Below, piece after piece: positions 23,099 to 55,363 of a stretch of DNA of 64,000 nucleotides. The translations under genes were made by a program, and so were the position numbers. The notes under the pieces were generated by a model that searched no databases, was not told the DNA's origin, and was given only the letters and a program-made list of their open reading frames with translations. Every line of letters begins with the position of its first letter. Within the stretch, counting starts at the first letter, position 1. Source of the DNA: Cyanidioschyzon merolae (lineage: Eukaryota); NCBI GenBank assembly GCA_000091205.1, contig AP006492.2. The stretch is one strand, 5' to 3'.

Positions 23099-24187
23099 AT
23101 GTTCCACGTCGTCGGTCCGGGGACGTCGAACATGGGACATGTGCAACGAGCGTGGGACCACTTTCGGGCCGTGGGCTCGCCACGGTTTCTCTGCGCTCCC
23201 ATGGTCGACGCGTCTGAGCTGGCGTTCAGGCTTCTCGTTCGCCGTTATGGCGTTCAGCTAGCGTACACGCCGATGCTCCATTCACTTAACTTTTTACAAT
23301 CTCCAAAGTATAGAGACGAGCACTTTACCACCTGCGCGTTGGATCGACCAGTCGTCGCACAGTTCTGCGGGAACGACCCGACGACGCTGGTTGCTGCTGC
23401 CAAGCTCGTCGAGTCGCAAGTCGACGCCGTTGACCTCAACCTGGGCTGTCCGCAAAACATTGCCCGACGAGGACGTTACGGTGCGTTCCTGCAAGACGAC
23501 TGGGACCTCGTCCAGCGCTTGGTCTCCGCGCTGAGCACCCACTGTAGTGTCCCGGTGTGGTGTAAAATTCGCGTTTTTCCGGATGAGCATAAAACGCTAG
23601 CGTATGCCAAACTCATCCAGGATGCCGGCTGTTCGGTGCTTGCTGTGCACGGGCGAACACGCGATCAGAAAGGAAACGATCCTGGTCCAGCAAACTGGAC
23701 CATGATTCGACGCATCAAAGAGCATCTAGAGATCCCGGTGCTTATGAACGGAAACATTCAGAGCTGGGCCGATGTACAGCGGGGCCTTGCGGAAACGCGC
23801 TGTGACGGTGTACTGGCTGCGGATCGTTTACTTGCATATCCCGCTCTATTTTCAGGTCGAGAAGACAATTGTATTTATGCACTGGCCCGGGAGTATCTGG
23901 GGATTGTGGAGCAATACGATCCCCAGACGCCAGCACGCATGATTCGAGGCCACCTTTTTCGGATGCTGAACGCAGATATTCGTCGCGACGAGGACCTTCG
24001 AGAGCGCTTGTTAGGAGCGCATTCTGTGCAGGGTTTTGCCGAGGCCGTGCTCATCGCTCAGCGACGAGCAGCAGAGATGCCTGTGGTCGCGGCGCCACTC
24101 GAGCGGGTACACGGACTCGGCGGGTCATCGCGTGTGGATGTCTCGCGTGGAGCATCGCAACCGCAGACGTATGCACGGCCTGTATGA
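23099..24187 (+). CDS. DUS1: tRNA-dihydrouridine synthase, Dus1/DUS1L-like
   Basis: Strong collinear match to DUS1L. Motifs: FLCAPMVDASELAFRLLVRRYGVQLAYTPMLHS, DRPVVAQFCGNDP, VDAVDLNLGCPQNIARRGRYGAFLQDDWDLVQRLV, VPVWCKIRVF, VLAVHGRTRDQKG, IPVLMNGNIQSWADV, GVLAADRLLAYPALFSG. The track start at 23063 is TTG; the first ATG is at 23099. Confidence 0.85.
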   Translation: MFHVVGPGTSNMGHVQRAWDHFRAVGSPRFLCAPMVDASELAFRLLVRRYGVQLAYTPMLHSLNFLQSPKYRDEHFTTCALDRPVVAQFCGNDPTTLVAAAKLVESQVDAVDLNLGCPQNIARRGRYGAFLQDDWDLVQRLVSALSTHCSVPVWCKIRVFPDEHKTLAYAKLIQDAGCSVLAVHGRTRDQKGNDPGPANWTMIRRIKEHLEIPVLMNGNIQSWADVQRGLAETRCDGVLAADRLLAYPALFSGREDNCIYALAREYLGIVEQYDPQTPARMIRGHLFRMLNADIRRDEDLRERLLGAHSVQGFAEAVLIAQRRAAEMPVVAAPLERVHGLGGSSRVDVSRGASQPQTYARPV

Positions 24188-25761: not shown

Positions 25762-27228
25762 TTATCGGTCAACTTCACCAAACACAAGATCCAGCGTACC
25801 AACCAGAGTCACAACGTCCGCAATCATATGGCCTCGAGCAAGCATATTCAGACCACTCAGATGCGCAAACCCGGGAGCGCGAATATGGACGCGATACGGC
25901 CGATTCGTTCCGTCGGAAATCATGTAGATGCCCTCCTCTCCTTTGGGTGCCTCTACCGCGACGTAGGTCTCACCAGCAGGAACAACGAAACCCTCTGAAT
26001 ACAGCTTGAAATGGTGGATAAGGGATTCCATGGAGGACTTCATGTCGTGTCGACTCGGTGGCGATACCTTGCGATCATCGACTCGAATCTCGCCTGAGGG
26101 CATCTGATTCAAACATTGCTGTATGATGTCCAATGACTGGCGCATTTCCTCGACACGTACGAGGTATCGGTCATACGAGTCTCCGTACACACCGACGGGG
26201 ATCTTGAAATCCACGTAGGCGTATGCGTCGTATGGTTGGACTTTGCGAATATCCCACGGAACGCCGCTCGCCCGCAACATCGGACCGGTAAAGCCCCAGT
26301 TCAGTGCGTCTTCGGCGCTCAGCACGCCGATACCAACGAGACGTTGTTTCCAGATTCGATTGTTGGTGAGCATCTCCTCGATCTCGTCTACACGCGAAGC
26401 GAACTGTCGGCACCAGGCGTAGATATCATCGCAGAGGCCCAGCGGAAGATCCTGGTGCACACCACCGGGTCTGAAGTAGTTGGCGTGCATGCGAGCGCCA
26501 CTGACACGCTCGAAAAACTCGAAGGTTTTCTCTCGCTCTTCGAATGCCCAGAGGAAGGGCGTCAGCGCGCCTACATCCATCGCATGGGTCGTGACAGCGA
26601 GCAGATGGTTCGAAATGCGCGTGATTTCCGCGAACATCGTTCGGATGTACTTAGCCCGCAGCGGCACCTCGATTTTGAGCAGTTTCTCCACGGCTAGGCA
26701 GAAAACTTGTTCATTACACAACATGGAGCAGTAGTCTAGTCGATCCATGTACGGCAGCGCTTGCAGATACGTTTTATATTCCATCAGCTTTTCCGTGCCG
26801 CGGTGGAGCAAACCGACGTGCGGGTCCGTCGACTCGACTACTTCGCCGTCGAGCTGGAGTACTAAACGTAACACACCGTGAGCAGCGGGGTGCTGCGGCC
26901 CAAAGTTGAGCGTGAAGTTGCGGATCTCTTTTGCGTTCTCCAGGTTTGCACGCATGCGCTCCTTTTCGTGCGGCTCGAGCTGCTGAACATCCACTTCCCC
27001 AGAGAAAGCGTTGTAGCTCTCAAGATCAACATAGTCCTTAGGTTGGAGCGCTCCGGGCTCAGGTCGCGTTCGTGTCGCATCAACGCAGAGTGCTCGCACG
27101 CCGGTACCCAGCAACCGACGCACCAGAAAACCGTTGTGAGGCGCAGGGTCGGCGTAGCGCCGCCCCAACTGGTGTAGGAGTAGGTTTCTGGCGAGCCCCA
27201 GACCCGAGCAAAAGCCTCGACACCACAT
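25762..27228 (-). CDS. NDUFS2: NADH:ubiquinone oxidoreductase 49-kDa subunit (NDUFS2 / Nad7 / NuoD), nuclear-encoded with N-terminal presequence
   Basis: [24 protein letters not shown]...[50 protein letters not shown]...[20 protein letters not shown]...[15 protein letters not shown]. The start codon at 27228 is ATG. An approximately 100-aa N-terminal extension ([24 protein letters not shown]...) is consistent with mitochondrial targeting. Confidence 0.9.
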
Positions 27229-37100: not shown

Positions 37101-37580
37101 TCATTTCGACAGCGTTGGATATGTTCTCTCGTGGAGGCTTGGCACCCAGGATATGAACCACGGCATGCGTCATTCATCATCACCGTGCTGATCGTAGAAC
37201 GTCGGACGCTTTCATCTAATATGTTTTTCTGCAAGCAACTAGTCACAACGTAAAATCTTTCCGCAACCTCTCTCCAGTTCACATCGTACTTTTCTTTTAT
37301 TTTTTACCCTGGAAAAAATCAAACAAAGACGACAAATAAGATCTGGCACAGGTGTTCAAGAATCCGATCCCTCAAGTACCATACGCACGCTCGATACACA
37401 TCGAACGTGCTGCGAATGGAGTTTATTTGCATCGCACGGAAGCTCCGGGACGCCGTCGGCCGTGCTCGTGTTTGCACCAGAGGCCGCTGGGAAGCCCAAA
37501 ACGTCACCGAGTCTTAGTGGCAGTCACACGAGCACCGGTGGCAACTTTGAAGCAAATCTTTTATCAGTGATACGCTGACT

Positions 37581-37710
37581 GCACATGCACATGCACACGC
37601 ACATGCACACGCACACGCACATGCACATGCACATGCACATGCACACGCACATGCACACGCACATGCACACGCACACGCACACGCACACGCACACGCACAT
37701 GCACACGCAT
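37581..37710. repeat. Compound microsatellite (CACATG/CACACG)n, alternating purine-pyrimidine
   Basis: gcacatgcacatgcacacgcacatgcacacgcacacgc... runs for about 130 bp. It sits about 150 bp downstream of the stop of the minus-strand gene ending at 37859. It generates the spurious poly-(CV)/(HV) ORFs 37524..37706 and 37564..37797. Confidence 0.9.
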
Positions 37711-37858: not shown

Positions 37859-40315
37859 TTATCGGTCAAGGAAGCGTGCAACCTCTTTCAGTGAACGGAA
37901 TTTGCGTCCGTCCGGGGATACATAGACACGATCGATGCGTCCGGCTAGGGATCCACCTTTGCGGATTTGCTCCTCGAGTCGCCAGCCCGGTGGGAGCGTC
38001 AGCGTCAGCGACGGTTTGCGTCCACCCCGATGACGACGGTCCGTCGCTCCAGCACCAACAACGAGGCCGTTCTGACCTGCCACGATCTCCGTCTGGTCAA
38101 GCATTCGGCGGGTTTCCTCATTCACCCTATGGCCAGTGCGGTGGCGTTTGCGCTTACGGGCAAGTGCACGATCACTGTCTTTTTTGATCACTGGCAGTGA
38201 CGATCGCGGAAATCGATGAGCGGGTTTCGAAAGTCTCGCAGCTGCACTTGCTGGCGATGTCAGCGGTGAGGTCGACGACGAACGCATCGCCGACGCGTTC
38301 CTGTTCCGAAGGGCCAAAGCCTCTTCCCGGGACGACCTGCGGGGGCGGCGGAGACCCTGCTCCGCATCTCGAGCTGGTTCTTCTGCTTCATCGCTCCATG
38401 CTTCCTCGGAGTCGTCTCCGTCGCTTAGCTCGTGGGTGTACCACGCCCGATGCGGATACATTTGCGCAGCCGGTGCGGCTATTGTCGACCGCGGGAGCGC
38501 ACGCGGTAGCGATTCGGAGACAGCGTGAGGAGCCCTTGCCGTGCTGCGCGACGCGTTCAGCGTCGCAAGACGCTGAGCGGCTTCGAGTGCTCTAAAGTTC
38601 GAGTCAGCTGCATTTGAATCCTCCGCTCTCGACGATTCGGCGGGAGGTGCGGCCCCGAGTGCGCGCCTCGTCACAGCGGGGGGTGCTTTGCTTTTGACCT
38701 GCCAGTGGTCCGCACCACGCCAGATGGCGTACGGACGAAGCTGATCCAGGTGGAACCATTCGTCACTGCCGTCCGCGAAAGCGACGAGAAAGCCCTTGCG
38801 TGCTAAAAAATTTCGAACTTGGCCAACAGTCCAACAGCAGCCGTGGCCACTGGTGGACGCAGTGCGCGACGGCATGTCCGTCGAGCTTGTGCTCTTTCCT
38901 TGGATTTGATCGACCGCTGCCTGTTCTGCAGTGCTTGTCGAAGCGGATGGTGTCGCTGATGTTCCCGCACGTCCATGAGACAGCGACAAAAGCGCCTCTA
39001 CAGCTTCGCCAACACCGGGACGCCATTCTGGCATTGGTGGCGGGGGATACGGCCTCAACCGTGCGCCCAGCACAACCCGGTGCGGGCCCTCGGGCATTGC
39101 TCCCGTTCCCCCAGCTGCAGCACCTTGAACATTTGCAGGGCATGCGCCAGCTGTTTCCGAGTTAGCACAAGCATCTGCCCGGATGCGGAGCACCTCGTCT
39201 GCACTGAGGAATGCAATTTCATAGGCGGTCTTCGTCAACGGTGAAACATCATCGTATTCGCACACGCGATTGATACCATCATCCTGCGCGATTTCCACCG
39301 CTGAGAGAAGCGACTCGGTGCTTGATGGCCATGAAACGTCCGCCGAGATAATCCGCGCCGGACACCAGGCCCGGGCTGCTCCCGCTGAATCTAACAGCTC
39401 CACAACCTCGCCCGGCTTGTAGACTCGCTGGCACTGAAGCCGCGGCGTGGGCGGTATGCCCATTGCCGTCGACCGATGTGGAGACTGTAGAATCGCTGGC
39501 GGCTCTGAGCGAACCGGAACACATCTCCAGTTCGAATCTGGAATCGCCGCTGGTTCCTTTTGCCCGTTGTCCGCAAAAGACCCTGTATTCGACCAGTCTT
39601 GCCCCAGGGCACCGTAAGCGGGCGAGATTCGCAGCACCGAATCCGGTCGAGGCGATATCAACGGCGACGATTGCGACTGGCCCCCGGCGCCCGGTTTCGC
39701 AGCTCGACCACGTTCGTGAGGCCGCTTTGGACGTCTACGCGGCGCCGCATCCACAGTGGAATCTTGTTGCGAAGCGGAGCTTTGCATCGGCCCTAAATCC
39801 TGGGCAATCGATACAGGATTGTACATCCTTGCCTCAAGCTGGCTATCGCCTGATGGTGCCTGAGCATTCCAGGCACTCGTTGAGCGAGGCAAACTTGCGT
39901 TGGACGAGACTGCGTCGGTGGTCCCCGATGGCCCAGCGGCACGCAGCCCACGAGACTCTGAGGCCGTGCGCTTCCCCGGGGTCCGTGCGCGGCGATTCTT
40001 GAACCATAAGCGACAGGAGCGAACTGGAACGCCACTTGCCGAAGACAGCGCCTGCAACTCCGCTGTGCTCGGCATTGGATTCTGCTCGAAGACGGTTTTC
40101 AGCATCTGCATCTGCTCTGGCGTAAAGCGATGCCTCTTCATTCGTGACGCTTCTTCGGAAGATCGTTCGCTTTGAGTCGCTGCTCGGCCATCCGAGTGCG
40201 AGCCCTCAGTGCCACGAGCCAGAGCGTCCACTGCGTCCGCTGTTCGAAACTCGTGCTCAGCGGGTGCCCACGTCGGCAGCGGTGAATGCACCAAACTGTG
40301 ACCGGCAACGTCCAT
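37859..40315 (-). CDS. Multi-domain chromatin protein: homeodomain plus Tudor/Agenet-like barrel(s) plus C-terminal methyl-CpG-binding domain (MBD)
   Basis: N-terminal homeodomain RHRFTPEQMQMLKTVFEQNPMPSTAELQALSSASGVPVRSCRLWFKNRRART with the WFxNRR signature. Central YKPGEVVELLDSAGAARAWCPARIIS and VGQVRNFLARKGFLVAFADGSDEWFHLDQLRP resemble Tudor/Agenet-type barrels. C-terminal LPPGWRLEEQIRKGGSLAGRIDRVYVSPDGRKFRSLKEVARFL matches the MBD consensus (LPPGWKREEVIRKSGLSAGKSDVYYFSPSGKKFRSKPQLARYL). A basic GRKP stretch just before the MBD is AT-hook-like. Long S/A/P-rich linkers. The track start at 40342 is GTG; the first ATG is at 40315. Confidence 0.6.
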   Translation of the reverse strand: MDVAGHSLVHSPLPTWAPAEHEFRTADAVDALARGTEGSHSDGRAATQSERSSEEASRMKRHRFTPEQMQMLKTVFEQNPMPSTAELQALSSASGVPVRSCRLWFKNRRARTPGKRTASESRGLRAAGPSGTTDAVSSNASLPRSTSAWNAQAPSGDSQLEARMYNPVSIAQDLGPMQSSASQQDSTVDAAPRRRPKRPHERGRAAKPGAGGQSQSSPLISPRPDSVLRISPAYGALGQDWSNTGSFADNGQKEPAAIPDSNWRCVPVRSEPPAILQSPHRSTAMGIPPTPRLQCQRVYKPGEVVELLDSAGAARAWCPARIISADVSWPSSTESLLSAVEIAQDDGINRVCEYDDVSPLTKTAYEIAFLSADEVLRIRADACANSETAGACPANVQGAAAGGTGAMPEGPHRVVLGARLRPYPPPPMPEWRPGVGEAVEALLSLSHGRAGTSATPSASTSTAEQAAVDQIQGKSTSSTDMPSRTASTSGHGCCWTVGQVRNFLARKGFLVAFADGSDEWFHLDQLRPYAIWRGADHWQVKSKAPPAVTRRALGAAPPAESSRAEDSNAADSNFRALEAAQRLATLNASRSTARAPHAVSESLPRALPRSTIAAPAAQMYPHRAWYTHELSDGDDSEEAWSDEAEEPARDAEQGLRRPRRSSREEALALRNRNASAMRSSSTSPLTSPASAAARLSKPAHRFPRSSLPVIKKDSDRALARKRKRHRTGHRVNEETRRMLDQTEIVAGQNGLVVGAGATDRRHRGGRKPSLTLTLPPGWRLEEQIRKGGSLAGRIDRVYVSPDGRKFRSLKEVARFLDR

Positions 40316-40713
40316 TGGCCTCTCACAACAAAAGGGTAGCACGGGCTGTACGATAAAATGCCCACTGGCTAGTGTTCAGGGCGGCCAACGCAAGCGGCCC
40401 CGGTGCCGCTGGCTTCCGCAAAGCCAAGCGTTCTTCCGAACACACGCGCACCAGAAAGTGCCGTTCGCAAGCGTTCGTTGCTAACTTCCGTGACTTTTCT
40501 ACAGTCACTCAGTGATGGCAGGCTCGAAAAAGCCCACTGGAAAACTGCGGTTTCCGCGCGAGGCTGCACGCAACGGAGCTGAGCGTCGCAAGCAGTAGAG
40601 ACCGGCTACGTTGATTTGCAGCGTCTCGTGGCGATCGCCGAACACGCAGCGAATCTCGGGCTTTGCAGTTGGCTTGCGGAGGTTGGCGCGCTGCGCACAC
40701 GCCGAACGCCTGG

Positions 40714-40826
40714 CAGCAGCAGCAGCAGCAGCAGCAGCCTGCCACATGCCATCGCGCTGTGCGTGCGCCGGCGGTGCGCTCATTGTGCGCGTTTCCCGCG
40801 CATGCCGATCGATCGATCGATCGGCA
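40714..40826. repeat. (CAG)8 microsatellite followed by (GATC)n, low-complexity region
   Basis: cagcagcagcagcagcagcagcag sits at about 40714..40738 and cgatcgatcgatcgatcg at about 40806..40824. They give poly-Q/poly-A/poly-C spurious ORFs on both strands (40505..41116, 40509..40745 and others). Confidence 0.8.
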
Positions 40827-43042
40827 GCGTCGGCACGCATCGGCAGGCTGGGTCGGATGCTGCTGTAAGGCATTGTATACACACGAGTCGTGATCTCCGT
40901 AGATGCGTACGGATGGTGATAATGGTAATGGTGATGATTCGCGGCGCTGGGCGGTCGTCGTGCGAATGAACCACTGCTGTCCTTGATGCTGTTAACGAAC
41001 GCGCACTCTGAGATCCGTGGTAAGACTGGACGACTCTTGAAGTTGAAGGAATTGCGGGTGGAAGGCCGATCGCCTGGGGCCCCAGACGCAACGTCGCTGC
41101 GCTGCTCTACATCCACGCCAGGCTAGAATGGGGAGCTTTTTCAAAGCAGCTTTGGTGTACAGTGCAAAGATTTCGATTATTCCGATAGTTATCAGAATCG
41201 ACTTTTCGGGATCTTTTTTCAATTGGTTTTCTTTCTGCTCCCCGTCTTTGAATACGCAGGTCTCTGCTATCAATCAAACACAATTATTGGCAGTGGCAGG
41301 GTATTGATGACAGCGTCATGGTCTAGATTTCGTTACTTGTCGCTGTTATGCTCAGACTTTTGATGTGCAGGTAAAAGTTGCGATGTGCGCTTCGTTCGCT
41401 ATGTTCATCTTGGTCGTAGACCGCCTTGGTGTGCGTTTCGCAGCGTGAAACTCAACTGCGTTCAGATAGTTGCATATGTGTGCGAGAACCCCTCCTATGA
41501 AGGTCACTATGTCATGCAAGAAAGCTTGCTTCATCGCTCGGCGCATGCCCCTCACGAGAATAGAAGGCCCGCTGTGATGCCCGGCTCCATTTTCGCGCTC
41601 GTTGCAGTACCTGACCGTGACCGGCTTCGGCTGAGCGATCCCTCGGCGAGTGCGGTGTCCGCTGCACGTGCAAGCGCATGCTGTTGGATTCAATGGGGGA
41701 TTTGTGGAGCGCCATGATGTTCTTGATCAGAAAGCACCAGCGGGATAATTCAGGATGGAAACCAAGTCGGGAAATTTCGATCCATTTACGCGTCCTTCTT
41801 CCAGAACGGTAACGAACTCTCCACCGGAGGCTATAGAGTCCGAGTAGAAAACCCTTTCCAAGCAAACGGAAGAGATAGCGAGCCTCTGGGAGCGTATCCT
41901 ATCAGGTTGTATGCTATGGGGGAATGCATTTTCGTCGATAGCTATTTAAAGAGGATGATTTATCTTTTCAAAGGCGCCGATTATATAGCGTGGCCAGTTG
42001 CGCGAGCGTTCCGCTTGAGCATGTGTAGAAGTTTTCAAGGGACGACGTCGAAGGCGTTTCGTCCCCAATCCAACGGTACGAGTTGCTGCGCCCAGAAGTT
42101 GCGTTGGAGCAGAAAAATACAACACTTAAAGAATGCGTGATTTGATTACTCCACACGTAAGGAACAGAGAAGCGTGGAGATTTTATTTATGAACCGGATA
42201 CTAATATCGGTTAGTTTACGGATCCTTGTTAAAGGGGGCGTCGCATATCACCTGGGTTCTCGAGGTGTCACGAATTTCAGCGACAGCGCGTCGAGCGAGC
42301 CACTCCGAAACAGCGCCAGAGAATCCAAAAACTACACACGAACCCGTAACATCTTATTACTGTACCTCGAGCGTCGAAGCACCACATCTGAGACCAGTGT
42401 CGGAAATAAATGCTAGGCCCAAACATGGGCACTACTCCCGTGCGCCATTTTCATCAGAGACGGATACAGTCGAGCGCGATCCAAGATGCCGCATCGGCTG
42501 CAAGTTGGCTGCGTTTGCCGGTGGAGCGTCAAGAACGTAAACATCAAGATATTCCTGGAACGCGCATGCGTCGCATACATCTCCGGGGAAACGGATGTCT
42601 TTCGAGTGCACCAGCACCAGGCAAGCTGAATATACCTTGGATCTTGGAGACTGGTGTGCTCAAAGTTGATAACTCCGTGCCACATGTGCTGTCATGCGCC
42701 ACGTGTGAGTCTGAGCTTTTCGTAGAGCATTTTATGCATACCGTCGGAGTGCTATGTCTATAGCATGTAGAGTGCTACTAAATCACGCTGTCGCAATCCA
42801 CTCACCAACAAGTAGTTTCGAGACATGTCTTACAATTCAGTTGCACTATGCCAAAGTTCTCACGTGCCAAAAACTCATAGCTAGCGACTGAGGTATTCTT
42901 GACAGACGGATCGACAGAGAGACCTAGTTTGCTATACGAGTGCGACTCACACCTTGAACCGTGTCTCGATCAAGGTTGGCACGGTTCGATGCAACTACCA
43001 ATCAAATGCACCGAATCATCATAGGGCGCGCGCGTGCAGCTG

Positions 43043-43352: not shown

Positions 43353-45368
43353 ATGTTCGTAGCAACCACGCCCTTGAAACTGCCGTTGGTTGGTTCCCAC
43401 GCTACGGTTGCAAGCAGGGGCCGGCGGTGTGCTTTCCTTGGCGACGCAGTGGTCAGCGTTGCTGCTGCGTCGCTCCGAGGCGAACGCTGTCGCGGACTAC
43501 CCATCGCCGGACGTTTGCACGTGCGCATGGGCTTGAATGCATCGAAACTTAAAAAACAGCAGCAACAACAGCAGGGCAAGAAGAAGAACAAAGTCTCAAC
43601 GAAACAAGAGGAGGCCTCCGATGCCCCAAGTCAGATTGACACGAACCGACGCGATTACATGTTCCAAATGCTTAGGGTCAGCAAAATCCTTCCTAATGGA
43701 AAACAAATTCTCAAAGACATTTCCCTCGCCTTCTTTCCGGGGGCTAAAATTGGTGTTGTAGGGCCCAACGGCGCCGGGAAGTCGACGTTGCTTCGTATCA
43801 TGGCCGGTGTGGATAAAGAGTTCGAAGGCGAGGCCCGTCCCATGCGTACCGCTTCCATCGGGTACCTGGCGCAGGAGCCTCAGCTCGATGATGGCGAGAC
43901 AGTTATGGATAATATCATGGCGGGCGTGAAAGAAATACGAGATAATTTGCACCGGTTGGAGACGCTGTCTCAGCGGCTAGCGGATCCCGCTTGCTCAGCA
44001 GCCGAGAAGCAGGAAATTGCCCAAGAGATCGACCAGGTTCAAGCCCAAATTGAAGCCGCTGATGGATACAACCTCGAGTCGATTTTGGAAAGGGCAATGG
44101 AGGCGCTTCGGGTTCCTGCTCCCGAGACGCCGGTTAAAATTCTTTCGGGCGGTGAGCGCCGACGGGTTGCACTCGTTCGTCTCTTGATTCGTCGCCCTGA
44201 TCTACTGCTCCTGGACGAACCAACAAATCACTTGGATGCAGAGTCCGTGTTGTGGCTCGAACAGTATTTGTCCAAGTATTACACGGGAACCGTTGTTGCA
44301 GTAACACATTCGCGCTCCTTCCTCGAAAACACCTGTGAATGGATCCTAGAGCTGGAAAACGGCCGCGGCATACCGCACCAAGGCAACTACTCCTCCTGGC
44401 TTGCCGCGAAACAGCTTCGTCTGGAGCAGGACAAAAAGGAGGCGGATGCGCGGCGACGACTCATTGACGCCGAGTTGGAGTGGATCCGAGCAACGCCCGC
44501 GGCTCGAATGACGAAGAACAAAGCGCGTATCGATCGCTTCGAGGAACTTTACCAAACGCAGCAAGAGACGGCGGAGAGTCGTTCGCAATCCCTTTCAATG
44601 AATCAGATTCGCATCCCCGTCGGGCCGTACCTAGGCGAGCAGGTCATCGAAGCCGAAGGTCTCTTCAAATGGTATGGAGATCGATGCCTTATCAGTGATG
44701 CGACGTTCTCGATCCCGCGCGGCTCAGTGGTCGGTATCATTGGTGGCAACGGTGCAGGCAAATCGACGCTCTTCCGCCTGATCACCGGACGGGAGCAGCC
44801 AAGCGCTGGCACCTTGCGCCTAGGCGAGACCGTCAAACTCATGTACGCTGATCAAGACCGAGAGACACTGGATCCCAACAAGACCGTATTTGAAGAGATC
44901 TGTGGCGACGCCCATGTCGATACAGTGACCCTGGGCAATCGCACATTGAATGCTCGGGCGTACTGCGCGTGGTTCAACTTCAGGGGCGCCGACCAACAGA
45001 AGAAAGTCGGCGTGCTGAGCGGTGGCGAGCGCAACCGCCTGAACTTGGCCAAAGCGATTTTGAACCGAGAACACGGCGGTGCAGGTAACGTGCTTCTGCT
45101 GGACGAGCCTGGCAACGACCTCGATACAGCCACGCTAGCGAATTTAGAGCAAGCAATTCTGGACTTTCCCGGTGTTGTTCTGGCGATCAGCCACGATCCG
45201 TGGTTTCTCAGCCGCGTCACCACCCACATTCTCGCGTTTGAAGGTGACTCGCAGGTGCGCTTCTTCGTGGGCGGTTTCGATGCCTATCAGGAGTACCGGC
45301 GGGCGCGCTTTGGTGATGAGTTTATCAATCCTACTCGTTTGAAATTCCGACCGCTACCCAAAATGTGA
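43353..45368 (+). CDS. ABC-F family ATPase of the bacterial EttA (YjjK) type, with an approximately 100-aa N-terminal organellar presequence
   Basis: From MFQMLRVSKILPNGKQILKDISLAFFPGAKIGVVGPNGAGKSTLLRIMAG onward the protein is collinear with E. coli EttA along its full length. It has two ABC cassettes with Walker A (GPNGAGKST / GGNGAGKST), signature LSGGERRRVALVRLL / LSGGERNRLNLAKAI, Walker B LLLDEPTNHLD / LLLDEPGNDLD, the EttA arm/linker (WLAAKQLRLEQDKKEADARRRLIDAELEWIRATPAARMTKNKARIDRFEEL) and the C-terminal FFVGGFDAYQEYRR. ATG at 43353. The extension MFVATTPLKLPLVGSHATVASRGRRCAFLGD... is hydroxylated/basic with no acidic residues, then a poly-Q/K linker. Confidence 0.9.
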   Translation: MFVATTPLKLPLVGSHATVASRGRRCAFLGDAVVSVAAASLRGERCRGLPIAGRLHVRMGLNASKLKKQQQQQQGKKKNKVSTKQEEASDAPSQIDTNRRDYMFQMLRVSKILPNGKQILKDISLAFFPGAKIGVVGPNGAGKSTLLRIMAGVDKEFEGEARPMRTASIGYLAQEPQLDDGETVMDNIMAGVKEIRDNLHRLETLSQRLADPACSAAEKQEIAQEIDQVQAQIEAADGYNLESILERAMEALRVPAPETPVKILSGGERRRVALVRLLIRRPDLLLLDEPTNHLDAESVLWLEQYLSKYYTGTVVAVTHSRSFLENTCEWILELENGRGIPHQGNYSSWLAAKQLRLEQDKKEADARRRLIDAELEWIRATPAARMTKNKARIDRFEELYQTQQETAESRSQSLSMNQIRIPVGPYLGEQVIEAEGLFKWYGDRCLISDATFSIPRGSVVGIIGGNGAGKSTLFRLITGREQPSAGTLRLGETVKLMYADQDRETLDPNKTVFEEICGDAHVDTVTLGNRTLNARAYCAWFNFRGADQQKKVGVLSGGERNRLNLAKAILNREHGGAGNVLLLDEPGNDLDTATLANLEQAILDFPGVVLAISHDPWFLSRVTTHILAFEGDSQVRFFVGGFDAYQEYRRARFGDEFINPTRLKFRPLPKM

Positions 45369-49050: not shown

Positions 49051-49475
49051 TCCGTGTCCATGACCGAATGCTTGTGCGACTGTGACGAAGTCCGCCGCTG
49101 CGAACGCCTCCTCAGCTGGCACGACGCAAGACTTCACTCACGGGTGCGGCATCATGAACACGATCTCTGGATACCCATTCGGACTAGGCATATGAACGTC
49201 CGGGAGCGCGTTGATCACGCCGCACCTCATCTTCAAGTTCCATCTAAAATCAACAGCACTACCAACAACCATACTTTTCTTCAGTAGTACTGGATCGTTC
49301 ATTCGATCCTTTATGTGTGTCGAGCCTGGGATGAGCGTCGGTGGCACGCAGCCCCACTGGATCGGCGCAATGGACGACGACGACGACCGCAGCCCTCATC
49401 CACGCGCTTTCGCGAACGGCACGTCGTCGGCCTGCTCCGTAACACGGGCTCGTACACGTACGCCTTCTGGTGAGC

Positions 49476-51167
49476 ATGGACGTTTCAGCTATCGCAGAAT
49501 CTGTACGTCGGAAACTGGATGAGCGGATCCCTCGTACAGAATGGACGGAAGAGGAGCGCACCTGGTACAAAGAAGATAAGAAACGGCGAAAGGAGGCGGA
49601 GGCAGCCCTGAAAAAGCACGTCGATCTCGAGGGAAACGTTCCGTCGCCCAGTGAAGAAGCGGTTCTCTCTGCGCAGCTAGAGTCCCTGAAAATGGACGCT
49701 GACGCGCCCGCGTTTGGCCGCTATACGTTAAAGGCGCTGACGACGAGCTCTTGTGGCGATGACTCTGTGCGACGCACCTGGGTAGAGGCTGGAACGCTGG
49801 GTGTCGCACATCCGGCGTGTGCCACGAACCAGGAGGTCTGGTTGAGGGGACGTGTTCAGACCGTGCGCGCCCAGGGCTCCAAGGTGGCCTTCTTGGTGCT
49901 TCGTCACCAGTACGCCACTGTGCAAGTAGTTCTCGTGGCTGACTCAGTACCATCCGTAACCCGTGACATGGTTCGCTGGCTGGCACGCTCCGGGGAAGTG
50001 ACCCCCGAAAGCGTTGTGGATATCTGCGGCATCTTGGTGCCTGCACAGGTCAAGTCGTGCACACAGAACGATGTCGAAGTTCACGCCCGACGCATTTATC
50101 TAGTGAGCCGGGCGCGAGTCCCGCTTCCGTTTGAAATCGCTGACGCTAGCAGGAGGGCGGATGAAGATGGCCCCCATGTACACCGGGACACTCGACTAGA
50201 CCACCGTTTTATGGATTTGCGAGTTCCAGCGCACCAGGCGATTTTGCGTTTGCAGTCCGGAGTTTCGACGCTATTTCGTGAATGGCTCGTTGCACATGGA
50301 TTTACGGAAATCCATACGCCCAAAATCATCGGTGGATCCAGCGAGGGTGGCGCAGAGGTATTCCGTCTACGCTACTTCGACGAAAATGCGTGTCTATCGC
50401 AATCGCCCCAGCTGTACAAGCAAATGGCGATTTGCGGAGACATGCGTCGAGTATTCGAAGTAGGGCCAGTCTTTCGAGCGGAGAACTCAAATACTTACCG
50501 CCACCTTACCGAATTTGTAGGTCTTGATATTGAAATGGAGATCCAGGAAAGCTATCACGAGATCCTGGACGTCCTCGAACAACTCTTTCAGCACATTTTC
50601 GAAGGTCTGGAGCAGCGCTTTGGGGCGGAGCTTTCTAGCATCCAGCGCCAATATCCGTTTCAACCGCTCCGTTATAAGCGAGGTCGCGGTCTCCGCTTAA
50701 CCCATCGCCAGGCAGTGGACCTGTTACGTGAGCACGGCGAGCAAGTCGACGATCTGGTCGACTTTACCAGCGAGCAGGAAAAGGCACTCGGCGAAATCGT
50801 GAGCAAGGAGTTTCAAACGGACTTTTATGTGATTGACCGGTTCCCCGCAAAGTGCCGTCCTTTTTATACAATGCCTTCGCCCGACGACTCGCGGTACAGC
50901 AACGCTTTCGATGTTTTCATGCGGGGCGAGGAAATCGTCTCGGGTGCACAGCGTATCCATGACGTCGACCTGCTCCGACAACGCATCACCGAGAAAGGCC
51001 TCGACCCCGCCACCTTGCAGAGCTACGTTGAAGCTTTTCAGTATGGAGTTTTTCCCCATGGCGGTGCTGGTATCGGTCTAGAAAGGGTGGTCATGCTGTA
51101 CCTAGGAATCGGAAACATTCGAGAGTGTTCGATGTTTCCTCGTGATCCGAAGCGCCTCTATCCTTGA
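49476..51167 (+). CDS. DARS: Aspartate--tRNA ligase, cytoplasmic/eukaryotic-archaeal type (class IIb)
   Basis: N-terminal anticodon-binding OB fold (VWLRGRVQTVRAQGSKVAFLVLRHQYATVQVVL). The catalytic core carries class-II motifs: HTPKIIGGSSEGGAEVFRLRYFDENACLSQSPQLYKQMAICGDMRRVFEVGPVFRAENSNTYRHLTEFVGLDIEME, FYTMPSPDD and FPHGGAGIGLERVVMLYLGIGNIRECSMFPRDPKRLYP. The track start at 49470 is GTG; the ATG is at 49476. Confidence 0.9.
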   Translation: MDVSAIAESVRRKLDERIPRTEWTEEERTWYKEDKKRRKEAEAALKKHVDLEGNVPSPSEEAVLSAQLESLKMDADAPAFGRYTLKALTTSSCGDDSVRRTWVEAGTLGVAHPACATNQEVWLRGRVQTVRAQGSKVAFLVLRHQYATVQVVLVADSVPSVTRDMVRWLARSGEVTPESVVDICGILVPAQVKSCTQNDVEVHARRIYLVSRARVPLPFEIADASRRADEDGPHVHRDTRLDHRFMDLRVPAHQAILRLQSGVSTLFREWLVAHGFTEIHTPKIIGGSSEGGAEVFRLRYFDENACLSQSPQLYKQMAICGDMRRVFEVGPVFRAENSNTYRHLTEFVGLDIEMEIQESYHEILDVLEQLFQHIFEGLEQRFGAELSSIQRQYPFQPLRYKRGRGLRLTHRQAVDLLREHGEQVDDLVDFTSEQEKALGEIVSKEFQTDFYVIDRFPAKCRPFYTMPSPDDSRYSNAFDVFMRGEEIVSGAQRIHDVDLLRQRITEKGLDPATLQSYVEAFQYGVFPHGGAGIGLERVVMLYLGIGNIRECSMFPRDPKRLYP

Positions 51168-52720: not shown

Positions 52721-55363
52721 ATGACTATGAGCGATTTTTTGCGTATCGTATGGTTTTTACGGAACAAGAACCCCGCTGCCGATCATATGATTGACGCATT
52801 GTCGTTCTGCGGATCGTTGGTCTCCACAAGAAACACGCGGAAACCGGGATACGTGCACAGGTGCAGTGTTTCACCATGGCGGCCGAAAGTTGAGCCCACA
52901 ACGAGCTCTATACGCTACTGTGTTTCAATCGCTCGTTCTGGCTCCGTGATGACGTCTGAGAAAAGCGCAACTGGTGCGGCTGACCGAGCCCGCGCGTCGC
53001 TGCCACAGCTGCTCCACCAAGCCAAAAGTCTCCGAGCTGCAACCGGTGAAGCGGAGCGCGTATCCGAGCAACAGCTCCAAGAGCAGTTAGCAATATTCTA
53101 CGAGCAAGTTCCGAAAGATTTCGCTCGAGTTCAAGAGGCGTTGCGGCTCCTCCTCCAAAGTCGGAGCGAGTTCTTCGCACTGCTTACTTTAGCCAAAACA
53201 CAGGCAGAACGTTTATTCTCGGACACGACGGAGCTGCGACGGTTCGATGGACACTTGCGCAAGGTAGAAACGGCGTTGAAACTAGTGGAAGACTTGTTGG
53301 CCCTCCGGCAGACAGCACAGACGCTGCAGAAGCTCCTTCAAGCGCCGGACGTTGATACTGAGCGAGCAGCTGCGCTTATCGCCGAGTTTCACGTTCGCTT
53401 GCAGCAGTCTGCGTTCCATTCTCAAATGGACCTCTTCGGTTCCGCTGAAGTAGCTGCACTACAGCAGCAAGTCGAAGAAGCTCGACATCAACTGCGTGCG
53501 CTCGTTGTGTATCAAGCTGAACAGGTACTCAGCAGCGCAGCTTCAGCACCAGAGGTGCCTGCGACATCCGAGCACCCAATGCAGGCTCACATCATGCGTC
53601 TGCATGCGCTGGGATATGTAGACGACGCTCGACGGCTGCTGGTACAGCACACCAAAGCGCAGGCACTCTCTCGCATGAGCCAAAGGACGGCATCAGCGCT
53701 TGAACCAGAGACAGCGCACTTGGAGGAACTGACCGCGCTCTACGAGGCGATTGCGGAGACCATCGCGTATACGGAGCGTTCCGCGCAACGCTTCGATTCG
53801 GATGATGGAAAAGTCATTCTTGCCCTAGAAGAACTAGCGAATGAACGAGGGGCTGAAATACTACAGCGTTTCTGCGATGCAACCAAGCTCGCCGAACGAT
53901 GCCGTCAGCTGAACCGCCGTCGAGAGGCGAATGTCAAAGCAGCAACGGAGTCTGTGTATCGCTCACATGCGGGTCCTGTTTTCGATATAGAGTACGCACC
54001 GCTGAGCAATATGGCTGCAATCGGGGACTCACGAACCGGAGCTACCGCGCATGATTTTGATATGACTCGGGAGCAAAGCGAAACGAATGAACTTGAAGCG
54101 CTTCTGGAACAGATTGTGGTCATGAGCCGTCGCACGGCCATGTTTCGCCATTTCATGATGACTCGTCTGGGACTCGGAAATGATTTTGAACAGGAGCGTC
54201 GGCGTGAGGGTGCTCTTTACCTCAAAATGCAGGAGGTCATGGGGATGTACGTGCTTCTGGAGCGGGCTCTCCTGGACAGCGAATGGAAGCTTGCGCAACG
54301 CCTGGAAGCGCTACCCGCCTCGGGGTCTGCCGGTGAGCCTCCAGCAGCCTCGTCGGAGACAGTCTCACGAGCGATCGACTACACGTTCTACGCGATCAAA
54401 CGCATCATCGGTCGATCGTTGCAGGCATTCGATCCGGACGCTTTGTGTGCATCGCTGAACCACGTGCAGGCGCTGCTCGCCGGACCGCTCCTTGAACATC
54501 TTCGCCGAAGCCTTCCAACGCATGCCGCGTTGCCCAGTGTCTTCCCGTCGGCGCAAATGGTGTTCGGATCCAGTTTCAGAGCTGAAGCACTTGAAGGTTT
54601 GATCAAGGTGGCGAATGATGCACGCACCAGCGGAAGCTACCTGCGACACTTGGTAACAGTCAGTGTGTCTCGGGGACTAGCGGAACAGCAGCTGCCCCGC
54701 TCGGCGGCGCTAACAGCAATCATTTCTGATTTAGAAACGACCATCGAGGAGTTACGATGCGTAGCGAGTCAAGGTGTCCGACGAATCTTTCAGACACTCG
54801 TTTCAAATGTTCTGGAGCAAGCTGCGACACACGCTGAGCGCCTACTTCTGGGCGCTTCGCCGACTTCTGGAGCATCCAATGGCTCGCCGTATCTCGTCTC
54901 CGAATCCAGCTTTCAACCAGGCCCGAGTGCTTTTGTTACCGAACTATTCGAGCAGATGTACCGTGGCGGCTTGGACAGGATCCTCGCGCAGTTAGAGCCC
55001 GAAAACACCGCTGAACTTGTCTGCCTCGTTTCCGAATGGACACGGGATCGTCTGGATCAGGCGATACGAAGCCGTTCGCTGTCCATGAATGCGCTGGGCG
55101 GTCTCATATTCGATGCCGATGTGCGTTACCTAGTGAACCGATTCGCGGGCCTGGTGCTAGAGACCCAGCGCGCCAATATACGCGCTATTTTTCGGCCGCT
55201 CTTCCACATGGCGTTGGTGTTGACAGTTGATCGACCCGCCGAAGTCCTAGATCTCTGGGAACAAATTCGAGAGACGCAGATTCCGGACCGTGTCCGACAA
55301 CTTCTACGGATGCGGGTTGAATTTCGTGCAGAAACTATCGCGTCTCTAGAGCTCCCGACGTAA
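52721..55363 (+). CDS. COG4: Conserved oligomeric Golgi complex subunit 4 (COG4)-like tethering-complex protein
   Basis: 880-aa helical protein. The C-terminal end PDRVRQLLRMRVEFRAETIASLELPT parallels the COG4 C-terminus (...[25 protein letters not shown]). It is preceded by LDLWEQI... in the position where COG4 has LDFWG. The overall CATCHR-like helical-bundle character fits. ATG at 52721; an alternative ATG at 52949 (MTSEKSATG...) is plausible because the first 76 aa look non-coding. The assignment rests on recalled motifs only. Confidence 0.5.
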   Translation: MTMSDFLRIVWFLRNKNPAADHMIDALSFCGSLVSTRNTRKPGYVHRCSVSPWRPKVEPTTSSIRYCVSIARSGSVMTSEKSATGAADRARASLPQLLHQAKSLRAATGEAERVSEQQLQEQLAIFYEQVPKDFARVQEALRLLLQSRSEFFALLTLAKTQAERLFSDTTELRRFDGHLRKVETALKLVEDLLALRQTAQTLQKLLQAPDVDTERAAALIAEFHVRLQQSAFHSQMDLFGSAEVAALQQQVEEARHQLRALVVYQAEQVLSSAASAPEVPATSEHPMQAHIMRLHALGYVDDARRLLVQHTKAQALSRMSQRTASALEPETAHLEELTALYEAIAETIAYTERSAQRFDSDDGKVILALEELANERGAEILQRFCDATKLAERCRQLNRRREANVKAATESVYRSHAGPVFDIEYAPLSNMAAIGDSRTGATAHDFDMTREQSETNELEALLEQIVVMSRRTAMFRHFMMTRLGLGNDFEQERRREGALYLKMQEVMGMYVLLERALLDSEWKLAQRLEALPASGSAGEPPAASSETVSRAIDYTFYAIKRIIGRSLQAFDPDALCASLNHVQALLAGPLLEHLRRSLPTHAALPSVFPSAQMVFGSSFRAEALEGLIKVANDARTSGSYLRHLVTVSVSRGLAEQQLPRSAALTAIISDLETTIEELRCVASQGVRRIFQTLVSNVLEQAATHAERLLLGASPTSGASNGSPYLVSESSFQPGPSAFVTELFEQMYRGGLDRILAQLEPENTAELVCLVSEWTRDRLDQAIRSRSLSMNALGGLIFDADVRYLVNRFAGLVLETQRANIRAIFRPLFHMALVLTVDRPAEVLDLWEQIRETQIPDRVRQLLRMRVEFRAETIASLELPT

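What the first reader, a model, noticed from the sequence alone, without database searches (positions are those of the whole stretch)
37859..40315. Unusual domain architecture: homeodomain plus Tudor/Agenet-like barrels plus methyl-CpG-binding domain in one 818-aa protein
Both ends of the ORF carry strong, independent signatures. The N-terminal end has a homeobox (WFKNRRA, RHRFTPEQ...). The last 45 residues give a near-consensus MBD (LPPGWRLEEQIRKGGSLAGRIDRVYVSPDGRKFRSLKEVARFL). Barrel-like YKPGEVVEL...WCPARII segments sit between them. Sequence-specific DNA binding, methyl-lysine/arginine reading and methyl-CpG reading combined on one polypeptide is not a standard arrangement. It suggests a lineage-specific reader linking DNA methylation to homeobox-type targeting. 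The basic residues immediately before the MBD (RRHRGGRKP) look AT-hook-like.
Basis: partly seen in the sequence, partly recalled or inferred. Interest (0 to 1): 0.65.

Follow-up and report, generated by a model that had tools for sequence, protein, structure and literature searches.

The report
Red-algal homeobox–Agenet–MBD chromatin protein

Summary
Observation confirmed. Window 37859-40315 (-) is one uninterrupted 818-aa ORF, 100% identical to C. merolae 10D CMJ215C/BAM80330.1 ("unknown homeobox protein"). Pfam calls a Homeodomain (aa 58-111, E 4e-13) and an MBD (aa 767-817, E 2e-12).

The middle is a tandem Agenet domain. The family profile hits only plant AGDP3/AGDP1/ADCP1 in PDB (E to 4e-13). 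An AlphaFold model (pLDDT 75) matches ADCP1 tandem Agenet (Foldseek prob 1.0).

The same HD-Agenet-Agenet-MBD layout recurs in about 40 relatives, including Cyanidiococcus, Cyanidium, Gracilaria and Gracilariopsis. It is a red-algal homeobox class I could not find described in the literature.

The functional reading is only partly supported:
- The MBD keeps both Arg fingers and Asp, but the methyl-sensing Tyr is Val, and the protein ends right after helix alpha1 (no C-terminal hairpin).
- The ADCP1 Tyr-Trp-Phe methyl-lysine cage is reduced to Phe.
- Haploid C. merolae has no detectable nuclear 5mC and no SUVH enzyme, yet the gene is expressed equally in haploids and diploids.
- No AT-hook core is present.

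Caveat: the only DNA methyltransferase (Dnmt3) is diploid-biased, so 5mC reading in diploids is not excluded.

Interest is moderate: a new variant of known kinds.

The parts
37859..40315 (-). Complete CDS of CMJ215C (818 aa plus TAA stop), C. merolae 'unknown homeobox protein' BAM80330.1
   Evidence: Single ORF. 100% identity over 818/818 aa to P0010 = BAM80330.1/XP_005534937.1. Locus tag and expression from PMC13353863 Data Set S8.
39968..40147 (-). Homeodomain, aa 57-116 (HD positions 1-60): typical 60-residue non-TALE type with R2, R5, W48, F49, K50, N51, R53
   Evidence: Pfam PF00046 aa 58-111 aligned to profile 1-54 without indels, E 4.2e-13. Best PDB hits are DUX4 homeodomains. WFKNRRAR is invariant in orthologues. 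Identity to orthologues is 83/77/67% against 52/50/34% overall.
39428..39517 (-). Conserved proline-rich lead-in to the first Agenet unit, aa 267-296 (…EPPAILQSPHRST…IPPTPRLQCQ)
   Evidence: 80/76/56% identity in cyanidialean orthologues. The PPTPRL.SQR motif is conserved family-wide.
39041..39427 (-). Agenet unit 1, aa 297-425 (YKPGEVVELL…AWCPARII…[insertion with helix]…AYEIAF…HRVVLGARLRPYPPPP)
   Evidence: AF2 strands at aa 304-309, 316-325, 364-369, 412-416 with pLDDT >90 in the core blocks. Foldseek match to ADCP1/AGDP1 tandem Agenet. Profile alignments to AGDP1/ADCP1 AGD1.
38672..39040 (-). Agenet unit 2 plus conserved C-terminal extension, aa 426-548 (WRPGVGEAVEAL…[48-aa disordered insertion]…CCWTVGQVR…KGFLVAFADGSDEWFHLDQLRPYAIWRGADHWQVKSKAP)
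   Evidence: Pfam Agenet aa 489-528 subthreshold in C. merolae, 56.8 bits in relative P0023, hit in 19/21 relatives. Profile E 4e-13 to AGDP3. pLDDT 90-97. Cage residue mapping.
38144..38158 (-). Basic cluster RKRKR (aa 720-724), a candidate nuclear localisation signal (inference only)
   Evidence: Regex scan. KRKRHR is conserved in two of the three full-length orthologues. Function not tested.
38000..38083 (-).
   Evidence: 92/92/78% identity to orthologues. No RGRP/GRP core. BAZ2A/B TAM-domain hits extend into this segment. Its role as an N-terminal extension of the MBD is inference.
37862..37999 (-). C-terminal short MBD, aa 773-818 (beta-sheet plus helix alpha1 only; R24, D34, R46 equivalents present, K32->R, Y36->V)
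   Evidence: Pfam PF01429 profile positions 4-54 of 77. Ungapped alignment to cMBD2 2ky8. Family alignment. 95/97/86% identity to orthologues, the most conserved part of the protein.

Best explanation
CMJ215C encodes a constitutively expressed nuclear DNA/chromatin-binding factor. It is a member of a red-algal class of homeodomain proteins with a fixed layout: an N-terminal typical (non-TALE) K50 homeodomain, a disordered linker, a tandem Agenet double barrel of the plant ADCP1/AGDP1/AGDP3 type, a second linker with a basic cluster, and a short MBD at the extreme C-terminus. The most likely mechanism is multivalent anchoring. The homeodomain supplies sequence specificity; a TAATCC-like site is inferred from Lys50. 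The MBD-like module adds major-groove/CpG and backbone contacts through its two retained arginine fingers, with little or no dependence on cytosine methylation. The tandem Agenet docks onto a histone tail or a partner protein through a pocket different from the H3K9me2 cage of ADCP1. Shown here: the gene, its expression, the three folds, their conservation, and the loss of the canonical methyl-sensing residues. Inferred: DNA motif, nuclear location, methylation-independence, and the nature of the Agenet ligand.
For: One gene and one protein: uninterrupted ORF identical to BAM80330.1; about 123-142 TPM in diploid and both haploid strains, logFC 0.22 and 0.07; the Cyanidiococcus orthologue was detected by proteomics in both phases. 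Homeodomain and MBD are above Pfam cut-offs. Tandem Agenet: 19/21 remote relatives hit Pfam Agenet, up to 56.8 bits; the family profile finds only AGDP3/AGDP1/ADCP1 in PDB, E 4e-13 to 7e-8; the AF2 model has pLDDT 74.9 and pTM 0.71; top Foldseek hits are ADCP1 AGD1-2/H3K9me2, AGDP3 and AGDP1, prob 1.0, TM(target) about 0.70. Family-wide architecture HD-AGD1-AGD2-MBD with the MBD always terminal, including Gracilariopsis chorda PXF49516.1 and Gracilaria changii complete transcripts. Apparent HD-less members can be truncated gene calls. Strong purifying selection on the MBD (95/97/86% identity) and the pre-MBD segment against 52/50/34% overall shows the domain is functional. Methyl-independence: Y36->V, and Y36F alone lowers cMBD2 affinity about 50-fold; the Tyr confers methyl selectivity; the region holding R67 is missing (R67M is about 100-fold weaker); haploid nuclear 5mC is at background while the gene is equally expressed there. 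Non-ADCP1 pocket: cage Tyr->His/Leu/Gln/Arg, Trp->Thr/Ile, only Phe kept, and H3K4 Glu->Arg; C. merolae has no SUVH-type H3K9 methyltransferase.
Against: There is no biochemical or localisation data for this protein. Both Arg fingers and Asp34 are perfectly conserved in Cyanidiophyceae, which would also fit a genuine (m)CpG reader. Dnmt3 exists and is diploid-biased, and 5mC has not been measured in diploids. Mapping of the cage Tyr position in C. merolae lies next to a 48-residue insertion, so that one column is uncertain. The AF2 model rests on a 24-sequence alignment with a known local misalignment in unit 1. The K50-to-TAATCC inference comes from animal homeodomains (my own knowledge, not tested here).
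Confidence: 0.55

Rival explanations
1. One reading: the C-terminal MBD is a true methyl-CpG reader that couples Dnmt3-dependent DNA methylation (present mainly in the diploid stage) to homeodomain-directed targeting.
For: MBD above the Pfam cut-off. R24, D34 and R46 equivalents are retained and the domain is 86-97% identical across Cyanidiophyceae. C. merolae has one Dnmt3, diploid-dominant in three cyanidiophycean species. The 5mC-negative bisulfite data (study PRJNA201680, mapped to the 10D reference) predate the discovery of the diploid stage.
Against: The methyl-selectivity Tyr is Val. The C-terminal hairpin with the R67-equivalent backbone contact is absent. The gene is not diploid-biased: logFC about 0 in C. 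merolae, and haploid-biased in Cyanidiococcus. In Gracilariopsis chorda, whose genome is methylated, the family's MBD is more degenerate, lacking the R24 and D34 equivalents.
Confidence: 0.2
2. Histone-methylation reader model: the tandem Agenet reads a methylated lysine (H3K27me3, the main repressive mark in C. merolae, or H3K4me) through a pocket other than the ADCP1 cage, making the protein a homeodomain-targeted or heterochromatin-associated histone reader.
For: The fold is closest to proven H3K9me2 readers ADCP1/AGDP1/AGDP3. Several invariant Trp residues (WRP, CCW, EW, IWRGxxxW) are unexplained by the ADCP1 template. H3K27me3 marks about half of C. merolae TEs.
Against: The canonical cage has 1 of 3 aromatics and the H3K4 Glu is not conserved. 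ADCP1 itself does not bind H3K27me3. No alternative cage was demonstrated here.
Confidence: 0.15
3. Protein-interaction model: the short MBD no longer binds DNA and serves only as a protein-protein interface (my own knowledge: comparable to roles proposed for MBD3 in NuRD and for human MBD5/6), with DNA binding left to the homeodomain.
For: The domain is truncated. Florideophyte members lose Arg/Asp contact residues yet keep the YVAPDG.RL.SLKEA.RYV core. Drosophila MBD2/3, with altered MBD residues, does not bind DNA.
Against: In Cyanidiophyceae both guanine-contacting arginines and Asp34 are strictly conserved, together with a basic pre-MBD stretch. That pattern is what selection for DNA contact would produce.
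Confidence: 0.1
4. Artefact: two adjacent genes (a homeobox gene and an MBD gene) read as one ORF, or a missing 3' exon completing the MBD.
For: The MBD match stops at the stop codon, which at first suggested an intron.
Against: No stop in 818 codons. Identical to the curated protein. Orthologues in Cyanidiococcus end at the same residue, and all family members end within about 5-15 residues of the helix. Complete transcripts in Gracilaria carry all domains. The sequence downstream is a (GCACAC)n microsatellite.
Confidence: 0.01

Closest known systems
Arabidopsis ADCP1 / AGDP1 / AGDP3 (tandem Agenet H3K9me2 readers; PDB 6IE4-6IE7, 5ZWX/5ZWZ, 7YT9)
   Same: The central region has the same tandem Agenet double-barrel fold with a Pro-rich inter-barrel linker (LRPxPP). 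They are the only PDB sequence hits of the family profile and the top structural matches.
   Different: The plant proteins are arrays of three tandem-Agenet cassettes without a homeodomain or MBD. Their Tyr-Trp-Phe cage and Glu pair for H3K4 are not conserved here. Both barrels here carry large insertions. C. merolae lacks the SUVH enzyme that makes their ligand.
Plant SAWADEE homeodomain proteins (SHH1)
   Same: Same design logic: an N-terminal homeodomain joined to a tandem Tudor-like chromatin-binding double barrel in one protein. The class is listed among plant HD classes.
   Different: No Pfam SAWADEE hit, and only weak structural similarity to SHH1 SAWADEE (Foldseek E about 0.6). SHH1 has no MBD. 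Mukherjee et al. found no SAWADEE class in C. merolae and left two non-TALE genes unclassified.
MBD2/MBD3 (NuRD) and MeCP2 methyl-CpG-binding domains
   Same: Best sequence matches of the C-terminal 46 aa (E 2e-11). The LPPGW motif, both arginine fingers, Asp34 and helix alpha1 are conserved.
   Different: Tyr36 is Val (MBD3 has Phe and low selectivity). The C-terminal hairpin (profile 55-77, including the R67-equivalent region) is missing. The domain sits at the extreme C-terminus of a homeodomain protein.
SETDB1 (triple Tudor + MBD + SET)
   Same: This is the known precedent for Tudor-family barrels and an MBD on one polypeptide. SETDB1 Tudor domains are second-tier structural hits (E 3e-3 to 0.1).
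   Different: There is no SET domain here and no homeodomain in SETDB1. The barrels here are Agenet-type and closer to the plant proteins.

Membership tests
Homeodomain (PF00046), typical non-TALE | 60-residue three-helix domain scoring above the Pfam gathering threshold | tested here: met
   49.4 bits against a cut-off of 22.9, E 4.2e-13, aa 58-111.
Homeodomain (PF00046), typical non-TALE | Recognition-helix signature W48-F49-x-N51-x-R53 and no 3-residue TALE insertion between helices 1 and 2 | tested here: met
   WFKNRRAR at aa 104-111. 54 residues align to 54 profile positions without indels. Position 50 is Lys.
MBD (PF01429) | Sequence match above the gathering threshold | tested here: met
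   46.9 bits against a cut-off of 21, E 2.2e-12. MBD2 in PDB at E 2e-11.
MBD (PF01429) | Complete domain including the C-terminal hairpin after helix alpha1 | tested here: not met
   Only profile positions 4-54 of 77 are present and the stop codon follows 2 residues after the helix. The same holds in all family members.
Methyl-CpG-selective MBDs (MBD1/2/4, MeCP2, AtMBD5/6/7) | Two guanine-contacting arginines (cMBD2 R24, R46) supported by Asp34 | tested here: met
   IRKGG, IDRV and KFRS align ungapped to cMBD2 R24, D34 and R46. Invariant in the 4 cyanidialean sequences.
Methyl-CpG-selective MBDs (MBD1/2/4, MeCP2, AtMBD5/6/7) | Methyl-sensing tyrosine (cMBD2 Y36 / MeCP2 Y123) | tested here: not met
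   Val in all cyanidialean orthologues; F/T/S/V/other elsewhere, never Tyr. Role of the Tyr from PMC3159451 and PMC5240623.
Methyl-CpG-selective MBDs (MBD1/2/4, MeCP2, AtMBD5/6/7) | Preferential binding to methylated CpG DNA; presence of the ligand in the organism | not testable with these tools
   Literature only: haploid nuclear 5mC is at background. Dnmt3 is diploid-biased and diploid 5mC is unmeasured.
Tandem Agenet domain (ADCP1/AGDP1/AGDP3 type) | Two consecutive Agenet/Tudor-like barrels, recognised by sequence profile and by fold | tested here: met
   The C. merolae sequence alone is subthreshold (18.6 bits < 27). Relatives reach 56.8 bits with 19/21 hits. Family profile against PDB: 6 hits, all plant tandem Agenet, E 4e-13 to 7e-8. 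Foldseek prob 1.0, TM(target) about 0.70.
Tandem Agenet domain (ADCP1/AGDP1/AGDP3 type) | H3K9me2 aromatic cage Tyr-Trp-Phe in the second Agenet, and Glu residues binding unmodified H3K4 | tested here: not met
   C. merolae has His/Thr/Phe at the cage positions and Arg at the Glu89-equivalent. The Tyr position is never Tyr in 24 family members (residues).
SAWADEE homeodomain class (SHH1) | SAWADEE domain C-terminal to the homeodomain | tested here: not met
   No Pfam SAWADEE hit at E<=1. SHH1 SAWADEE structures only at Foldseek E 0.6-1.2.
AT-hook | R-G-R-P (minimally G-R-P) core flanked by basic residues | tested here: not met
   No RGRP or GRP anywhere in the 818 aa; the stretch reads RHRGGRKPS. 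No Pfam AT_hook hit.

The most novel reading that the evidence does not exclude
A red-alga-specific homeobox class in which a Tyr-less, hairpin-less MBD and a cage-less tandem Agenet have evolved non-canonical ligand recognition. One example would be reading Dnmt3-dependent cytosine methylation that exists only in the recently discovered diploid stage. Another would be reading H3K27me3-type chromatin through a new Agenet pocket. Either would make CMJ215C a sequence-specific factor that interprets life-cycle-specific chromatin states in a lineage that lacks the H3K9me/HP1 and DNMT1 systems.
Probability: 0.15. Interest if true: 0.75.

Novelty: new variant of a known kind. Interest (0 to 1): 0.5.

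Why it matters
Homeodomains fused to chromatin-reader co-domains define whole plant gene classes (PHD-HD, DDT-HD, SAWADEE-HD). Red algae have only a handful of homeobox genes, and two non-TALE ones were left unclassified in C. merolae in 2009.

This work gives one of them a full domain map: K50 homeodomain, tandem Agenet and short MBD. It shows that the layout is conserved from Cyanidiophyceae to Florideophyceae, so it defines a rhodophyte homeobox class.

It also raises a sharp question that can be tested. What does an extremely conserved MBD do in an organism whose haploid nuclear DNA has no detectable 5mC, which has a single diploid-biased Dnmt3, and which has no H3K9 methyltransferase?

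C. merolae is transformable by homologous recombination and now has an accessible haploid/diploid cycle. Knock-outs, tagging and diploid methylome profiling are therefore feasible. They could show how MBD and Agenet folds are repurposed when their classical ligands are absent.

Tried and rejected
1. Intron or missing 3' exon completing the MBD: rejected. All orthologues stop at or near the same residue, and the downstream DNA is a microsatellite.
2. AF2 of the middle region with only 4 cyanidialean sequences: pLDDT 35, unusable, so no fold search was run on it.
3. The 4-sequence profile against PDB sequences gave only a chance hit to Hsp60.
4. Pfam on the C. merolae protein alone did not call Agenet (E 0.28 full length, 0.003 on the excised region). 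Remote relatives were needed to settle it.
5. The search for homologous proteins with the 24-sequence profile was swamped by low-complexity words and returned 4 hits, although one was a plant Agenet/DUF724 protein at E 1e-25.
6. The afdb50 fold library was unavailable, so named UniProt relatives from other red algae (Porphyra, Chondrus, Galdieria, Porphyridium) could not be listed. Presence in Galdieria is not established.
7. AT-hook: rejected.
8. SAWADEE identity of the barrels: rejected.
9. An ADCP1-like H3K9me2 cage: rejected by residue mapping.
10. The faint DUF7028 hit over the MBD (E 0.011, below cut-off) was not pursued.
11. Literature searches for the locus tag CMJ215C and for homeodomain + Agenet + MBD in algae found nothing.
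Full report
**Observation**

Window 37859-40315 holds one uninterrupted minus-strand ORF: ATG at 40313-40315, TAA at 37859-37861, 818 aa.

Pfam calls a Homeodomain at aa 58-111 (E 4.2e-13, 49.4 bits, cut-off 22.9). It also calls an MBD at aa 767-817 (E 2.2e-12, 46.9 bits, cut-off 21). PDB sequence searches agree. DUX4 homeodomains are the best N-terminal hits, and MBD2 is the best C-terminal hit (E 2e-11 for the last 74 aa).

**Identity of the gene**

The protein is 100% identical over 818/818 residues to Cyanidioschyzon merolae 10D BAM80330.1 / XP_005534937.1 / UniProt M1V5A5, annotated "unknown homeobox protein". Its locus tag is CMJ215C and iTAK files it as "HB-other". The neighbouring ABC ATPase at window 43353-45368 is CMJ216C.

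Mukherjee et al. 2009 counted six homeobox genes in C. merolae and left two non-TALE genes unclassified (PMC2775110). No paper in the searchable library mentions CMJ215C or the combination homeodomain + Agenet + MBD in algae.

**One gene, one mRNA, one protein**

- The ORF has no internal stop and equals the curated model.
- Orthologues in Cyanidiococcus yangmingshanensis (808 aa), a related cyanidiophyte (768 aa) and Cyanidium caldarium (737 and 749 aa) are colinear, with both terminal domains.
- RNA-seq in PMC13353863 (Data Set S8) gives 123-128 TPM in diploid MS1, 124-133 in haploid MS1-Ha3 and 131-142 in haploid 10D (logFC 0.22 and 0.07).
- The Cyanidiococcus orthologue is about two-fold haploid-biased in mRNA. 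It was detected by proteomics in both phases (5.4e5 against 3.9e6, n=1).
- In Gracilaria changii, Trinity transcripts flagged "complete" carry all four modules.

The alternative of two fused genes or a missing exon is rejected.

**The middle of the protein**

On the C. merolae sequence alone, Agenet is subthreshold. A first AlphaFold run with four sequences was useless (pLDDT 35).

A profile of the central region, searched against 1.84 billion representative proteins, found only 23 proteins. Of the 21 remote ones, 19 hit Pfam Agenet (best 56.8 bits, E 3e-15), 11 hit Homeodomain and 11 hit MBD.

Local HMMs built from the cyanidialean blocks show the order HD, block 1, block 2, MBD in most of them, with the MBD always at the extreme C-terminus. 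At least one apparently HD-less member (P0023) has the homeobox just upstream in the same frame, so it is a truncated gene call.

With a 24-sequence alignment the AlphaFold model reached pLDDT 74.9 and pTM 0.71, with the barrel cores above 90. Its best PDB matches are ADCP1 tandem Agenet 1-2 bound to H3K9me2 or H3K9me1, AGDP3 and AGDP1 (E 3e-5 to 8e-4, probability 1.0, TM normalised to target about 0.70). SETDB1 and UHRF1 tandem Tudors follow, and SHH1 SAWADEE appears only at E about 0.6.

Independently, the family profile hits exactly six PDB sequences, all plant tandem-Agenet proteins (AGDP3 at 4e-13 down to ADCP1 at 7e-8). Each barrel carries a lineage-specific insertion.

**Taxonomic range**

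Named members come from:
- Cyanidioschyzon, Cyanidiococcus and Cyanidium (Cyanidiophyceae);
- Gracilaria changii and Gracilariopsis chorda PXF49516.1 (Florideophyceae).

A further search with the Gracilariopsis protein added more unnamed members, whose precomputed Pfam calls combine Homeodomain + Agenet (± MBD). About 40 distinct sequences are now known. Nothing outside this family was recovered by the central-region profile at E<=1e-3.

I could not establish presence or absence in Galdieria, Porphyra or Chondrus, because the AFDB library was unavailable and most hits are unnamed metagenome or SRA assemblies.

**Is the MBD a methyl-CpG reader?**

For:
- The ungapped alignment to chicken MBD2 (2ky8) shows R24, D34 and R46 conserved, and K32 replaced by Arg.
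- The MBD is the most conserved part of the protein, at 95/97/86% identity against 52/50/34% overall. A 28-residue segment just before it is at 92/92/78%.

Against:
- Y36 (MeCP2 Y123) is Val in every cyanidialean orthologue and is never Tyr in the family. This Tyr provides methyl selectivity, and MBD3 with Phe has much lower selectivity (PMC5240623). Y36F alone raises the cMBD2 Kd from 2.1 to 109 uM (PMC3159451).
- The protein ends two residues after helix alpha1, so profile positions 55-77 are absent. That region holds R67, whose mutation costs about 100-fold in affinity, and G69, which ties the C-terminus to strand 1. The truncation is a family trait.
- A re-analysis of bisulfite data mapped to the 10D reference found nuclear 5mC no higher than the organelle background (bioRxiv 10.1101/2022.10.24.513474). 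The gene is nevertheless fully expressed in haploids.
- In Gracilariopsis chorda, which does methylate its genome, the family's MBD is more degenerate and lacks the R24 and D34 equivalents.

Caveat: C. merolae encodes one Dnmt3. It is the only predicted DNA methyltransferase and is expressed mainly in the recently discovered diploid stage. Diploid 5mC has not been reported in what I could read.

**Is the tandem Agenet a methyl-lysine reader?**

In AGDP1 the H3K9me2 cage is Tyr122/Trp127/Phe144 (+Glu149), and H3K4 is held by Glu45/Glu89. In ADCP1 the cages are Y129/W134/F151 and Y301/W306/F323.

Mapping these through the profile alignment gives His/Thr/Phe in C. merolae. The Tyr position is never Tyr in 24 family members. 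The Trp position is Thr or Ile in Cyanidiophyceae and Phe, Arg, Cys, Met or Val elsewhere. The Glu89 equivalent is Arg in Cyanidiophyceae.

C. merolae also lacks a SUVH-type H3K9 methyltransferase, and H3K27me3 is its main repressive mark on transposons. The fold is therefore ADCP1-like, but the ADCP1 mechanism is not conserved. Several invariant tryptophans (WRP, CCW, EW, IWRGxxxW) may form a different surface, which remains untested.

**AT-hook**

There is no RGRP or GRP core anywhere in the protein. The basic stretch RRHRGGRKP lies in the highly conserved pre-MBD segment. I interpret it (inference) as an N-terminal extension of the MBD that may add backbone contacts or compensate for the missing hairpin. 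BAZ2A/B TAM-domain matches extend into it.

**Homeodomain details**

With aa 58 as homeodomain position 2, the domain has R2, R5, F20, W48, F49, K50, N51 and R53, and no TALE insertion. WFKNRRAR is invariant across the family. Lys50 homeodomains in animals (Bicoid, Otx, Pitx, Gsc) prefer TAATCC. That is my own knowledge, it is only a prediction here, and it was not tested.

**Most likely mechanism**

My confidence in this is 0.55. I see a constitutively expressed, multivalent DNA/chromatin anchor.
- The homeodomain gives sequence specificity.
- The short MBD gives CpG or backbone contacts that are largely methylation-independent.
- The tandem Agenet engages a histone tail or a partner through a non-ADCP1 surface.
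- The modules are joined by poorly conserved, low-complexity linkers (9-38% identity).

Rivals:
- a genuine diploid-stage mCpG reader (0.2);
- a methyl-lysine reader using a new pocket (0.15);
- an MBD used only for protein contacts (0.1);
- an artefact (0.01).

**Comparison with known systems**

It works like the plant homeodomain classes that carry chromatin co-domains, most closely SHH1 (homeodomain + tandem Tudor-like SAWADEE). It is not a SAWADEE protein. Its barrels belong with the plant ADCP1/AGDP tandem Agenets by fold and profile, but it fails the cage test. Its MBD belongs to PF01429 by score, but it fails two features of methyl-selective MBDs. SETDB1 is the precedent for Tudor-family barrels plus an MBD on one chain, but it has a SET domain and no homeodomain.

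**Verdict**

The functional interpretation is only partly supported. Novelty: a new variant of known kinds, namely a rhodophyte homeobox class (HD + tandem Agenet + short MBD). Automated pipelines had already flagged HD + MBD (JGI names such as "Homeodomain/Methyl-CpG binding domain"), but I found no description of it in the literature. Interest is 0.5. The architecture is unusual, and the question of what an MBD does where 5mC is undetectable can be tested directly in a tractable model. No unprecedented mechanism is demonstrated.

Noticed in passing
window 37580-37709: A (GCACAC)n / 12-bp-period microsatellite (about 21 hexamer copies, 91-94% matches) lies about 150 bp downstream of the CMJ215C stop codon, in the 3' flank.
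   Followed up: partly
window 40713-40738 (inside ORF 40505-41116, minus strand): A perfect (GCA)8.7 trinucleotide run encodes a poly-Ala tract in a 203-aa ORF with no Pfam hit, immediately upstream of CMJ215C. Whether that ORF is a real gene was not examined.
   Followed up: no
window 946-63322 (large ORFs): The gene neighbourhood is ordinary housekeeping with no chromatin-related clustering: fatty-acid desaturase (946-2184), Omp85-family (3204-5747), Nfu/NifU (10528-11511), WD40 (14075-15970), Mo25 (16160-17476), Dus (23063-24187), complex I 49-kDa subunit (25762-27228), ABC ATPase CMJ216C (43353-45368), class II aaRS (49470-51167), COG4 (52721-55363), NT5C (59343-60185), actin-family (62237-63322).
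   Followed up: partly
P0004 / P0022 (Cyanidium caldarium orthologues), C-terminus: Unlike Cyanidioschyzon and Cyanidiococcus, the Cyanidium proteins continue about 15 residues past the MBD helix (…FLERVGP(I/T)D…ATMSEE). This tail does not resemble the canonical MBD hairpin.
   Followed up: no
P0041/P0051, P0026, P0027, P0029 and P0046 (family members): Some family members show HD + Agenet but no detectable MBD (for example P0051 ends …RKRTRTLVV). P0046 is 1289 aa with a very long insertion between the homeodomain and Agenet unit 2. It is unclear whether these are true losses or gene-model problems.
   Followed up: no
L002 2737-2913 vs 3001-4242: In the metagenomic contig encoding P0023, the homeobox lies in the same frame just upstream of the called start. 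Prokaryote-style gene calling therefore truncates eukaryotic family members in the protein databases.
   Followed up: yes
window 37862-37999 (aa 777-814) and relatives: There is a faint sub-threshold Pfam hit to DUF7028 over the MBD (E 0.011 here; 5 of 21 relatives, best E 0.0015), suggesting DUF7028 may be an MBD-like family.
   Followed up: no
PMC13353863 Data Set S7 (Cyanidiococcus orthologue CcyanHa1_g736): The orthologue is about 2-fold haploid-biased in mRNA and about 7-fold in a single proteome replicate, opposite to the diploid bias of Dnmt3 (protein '2n only'). The C. merolae gene is unbiased.
   Followed up: partly
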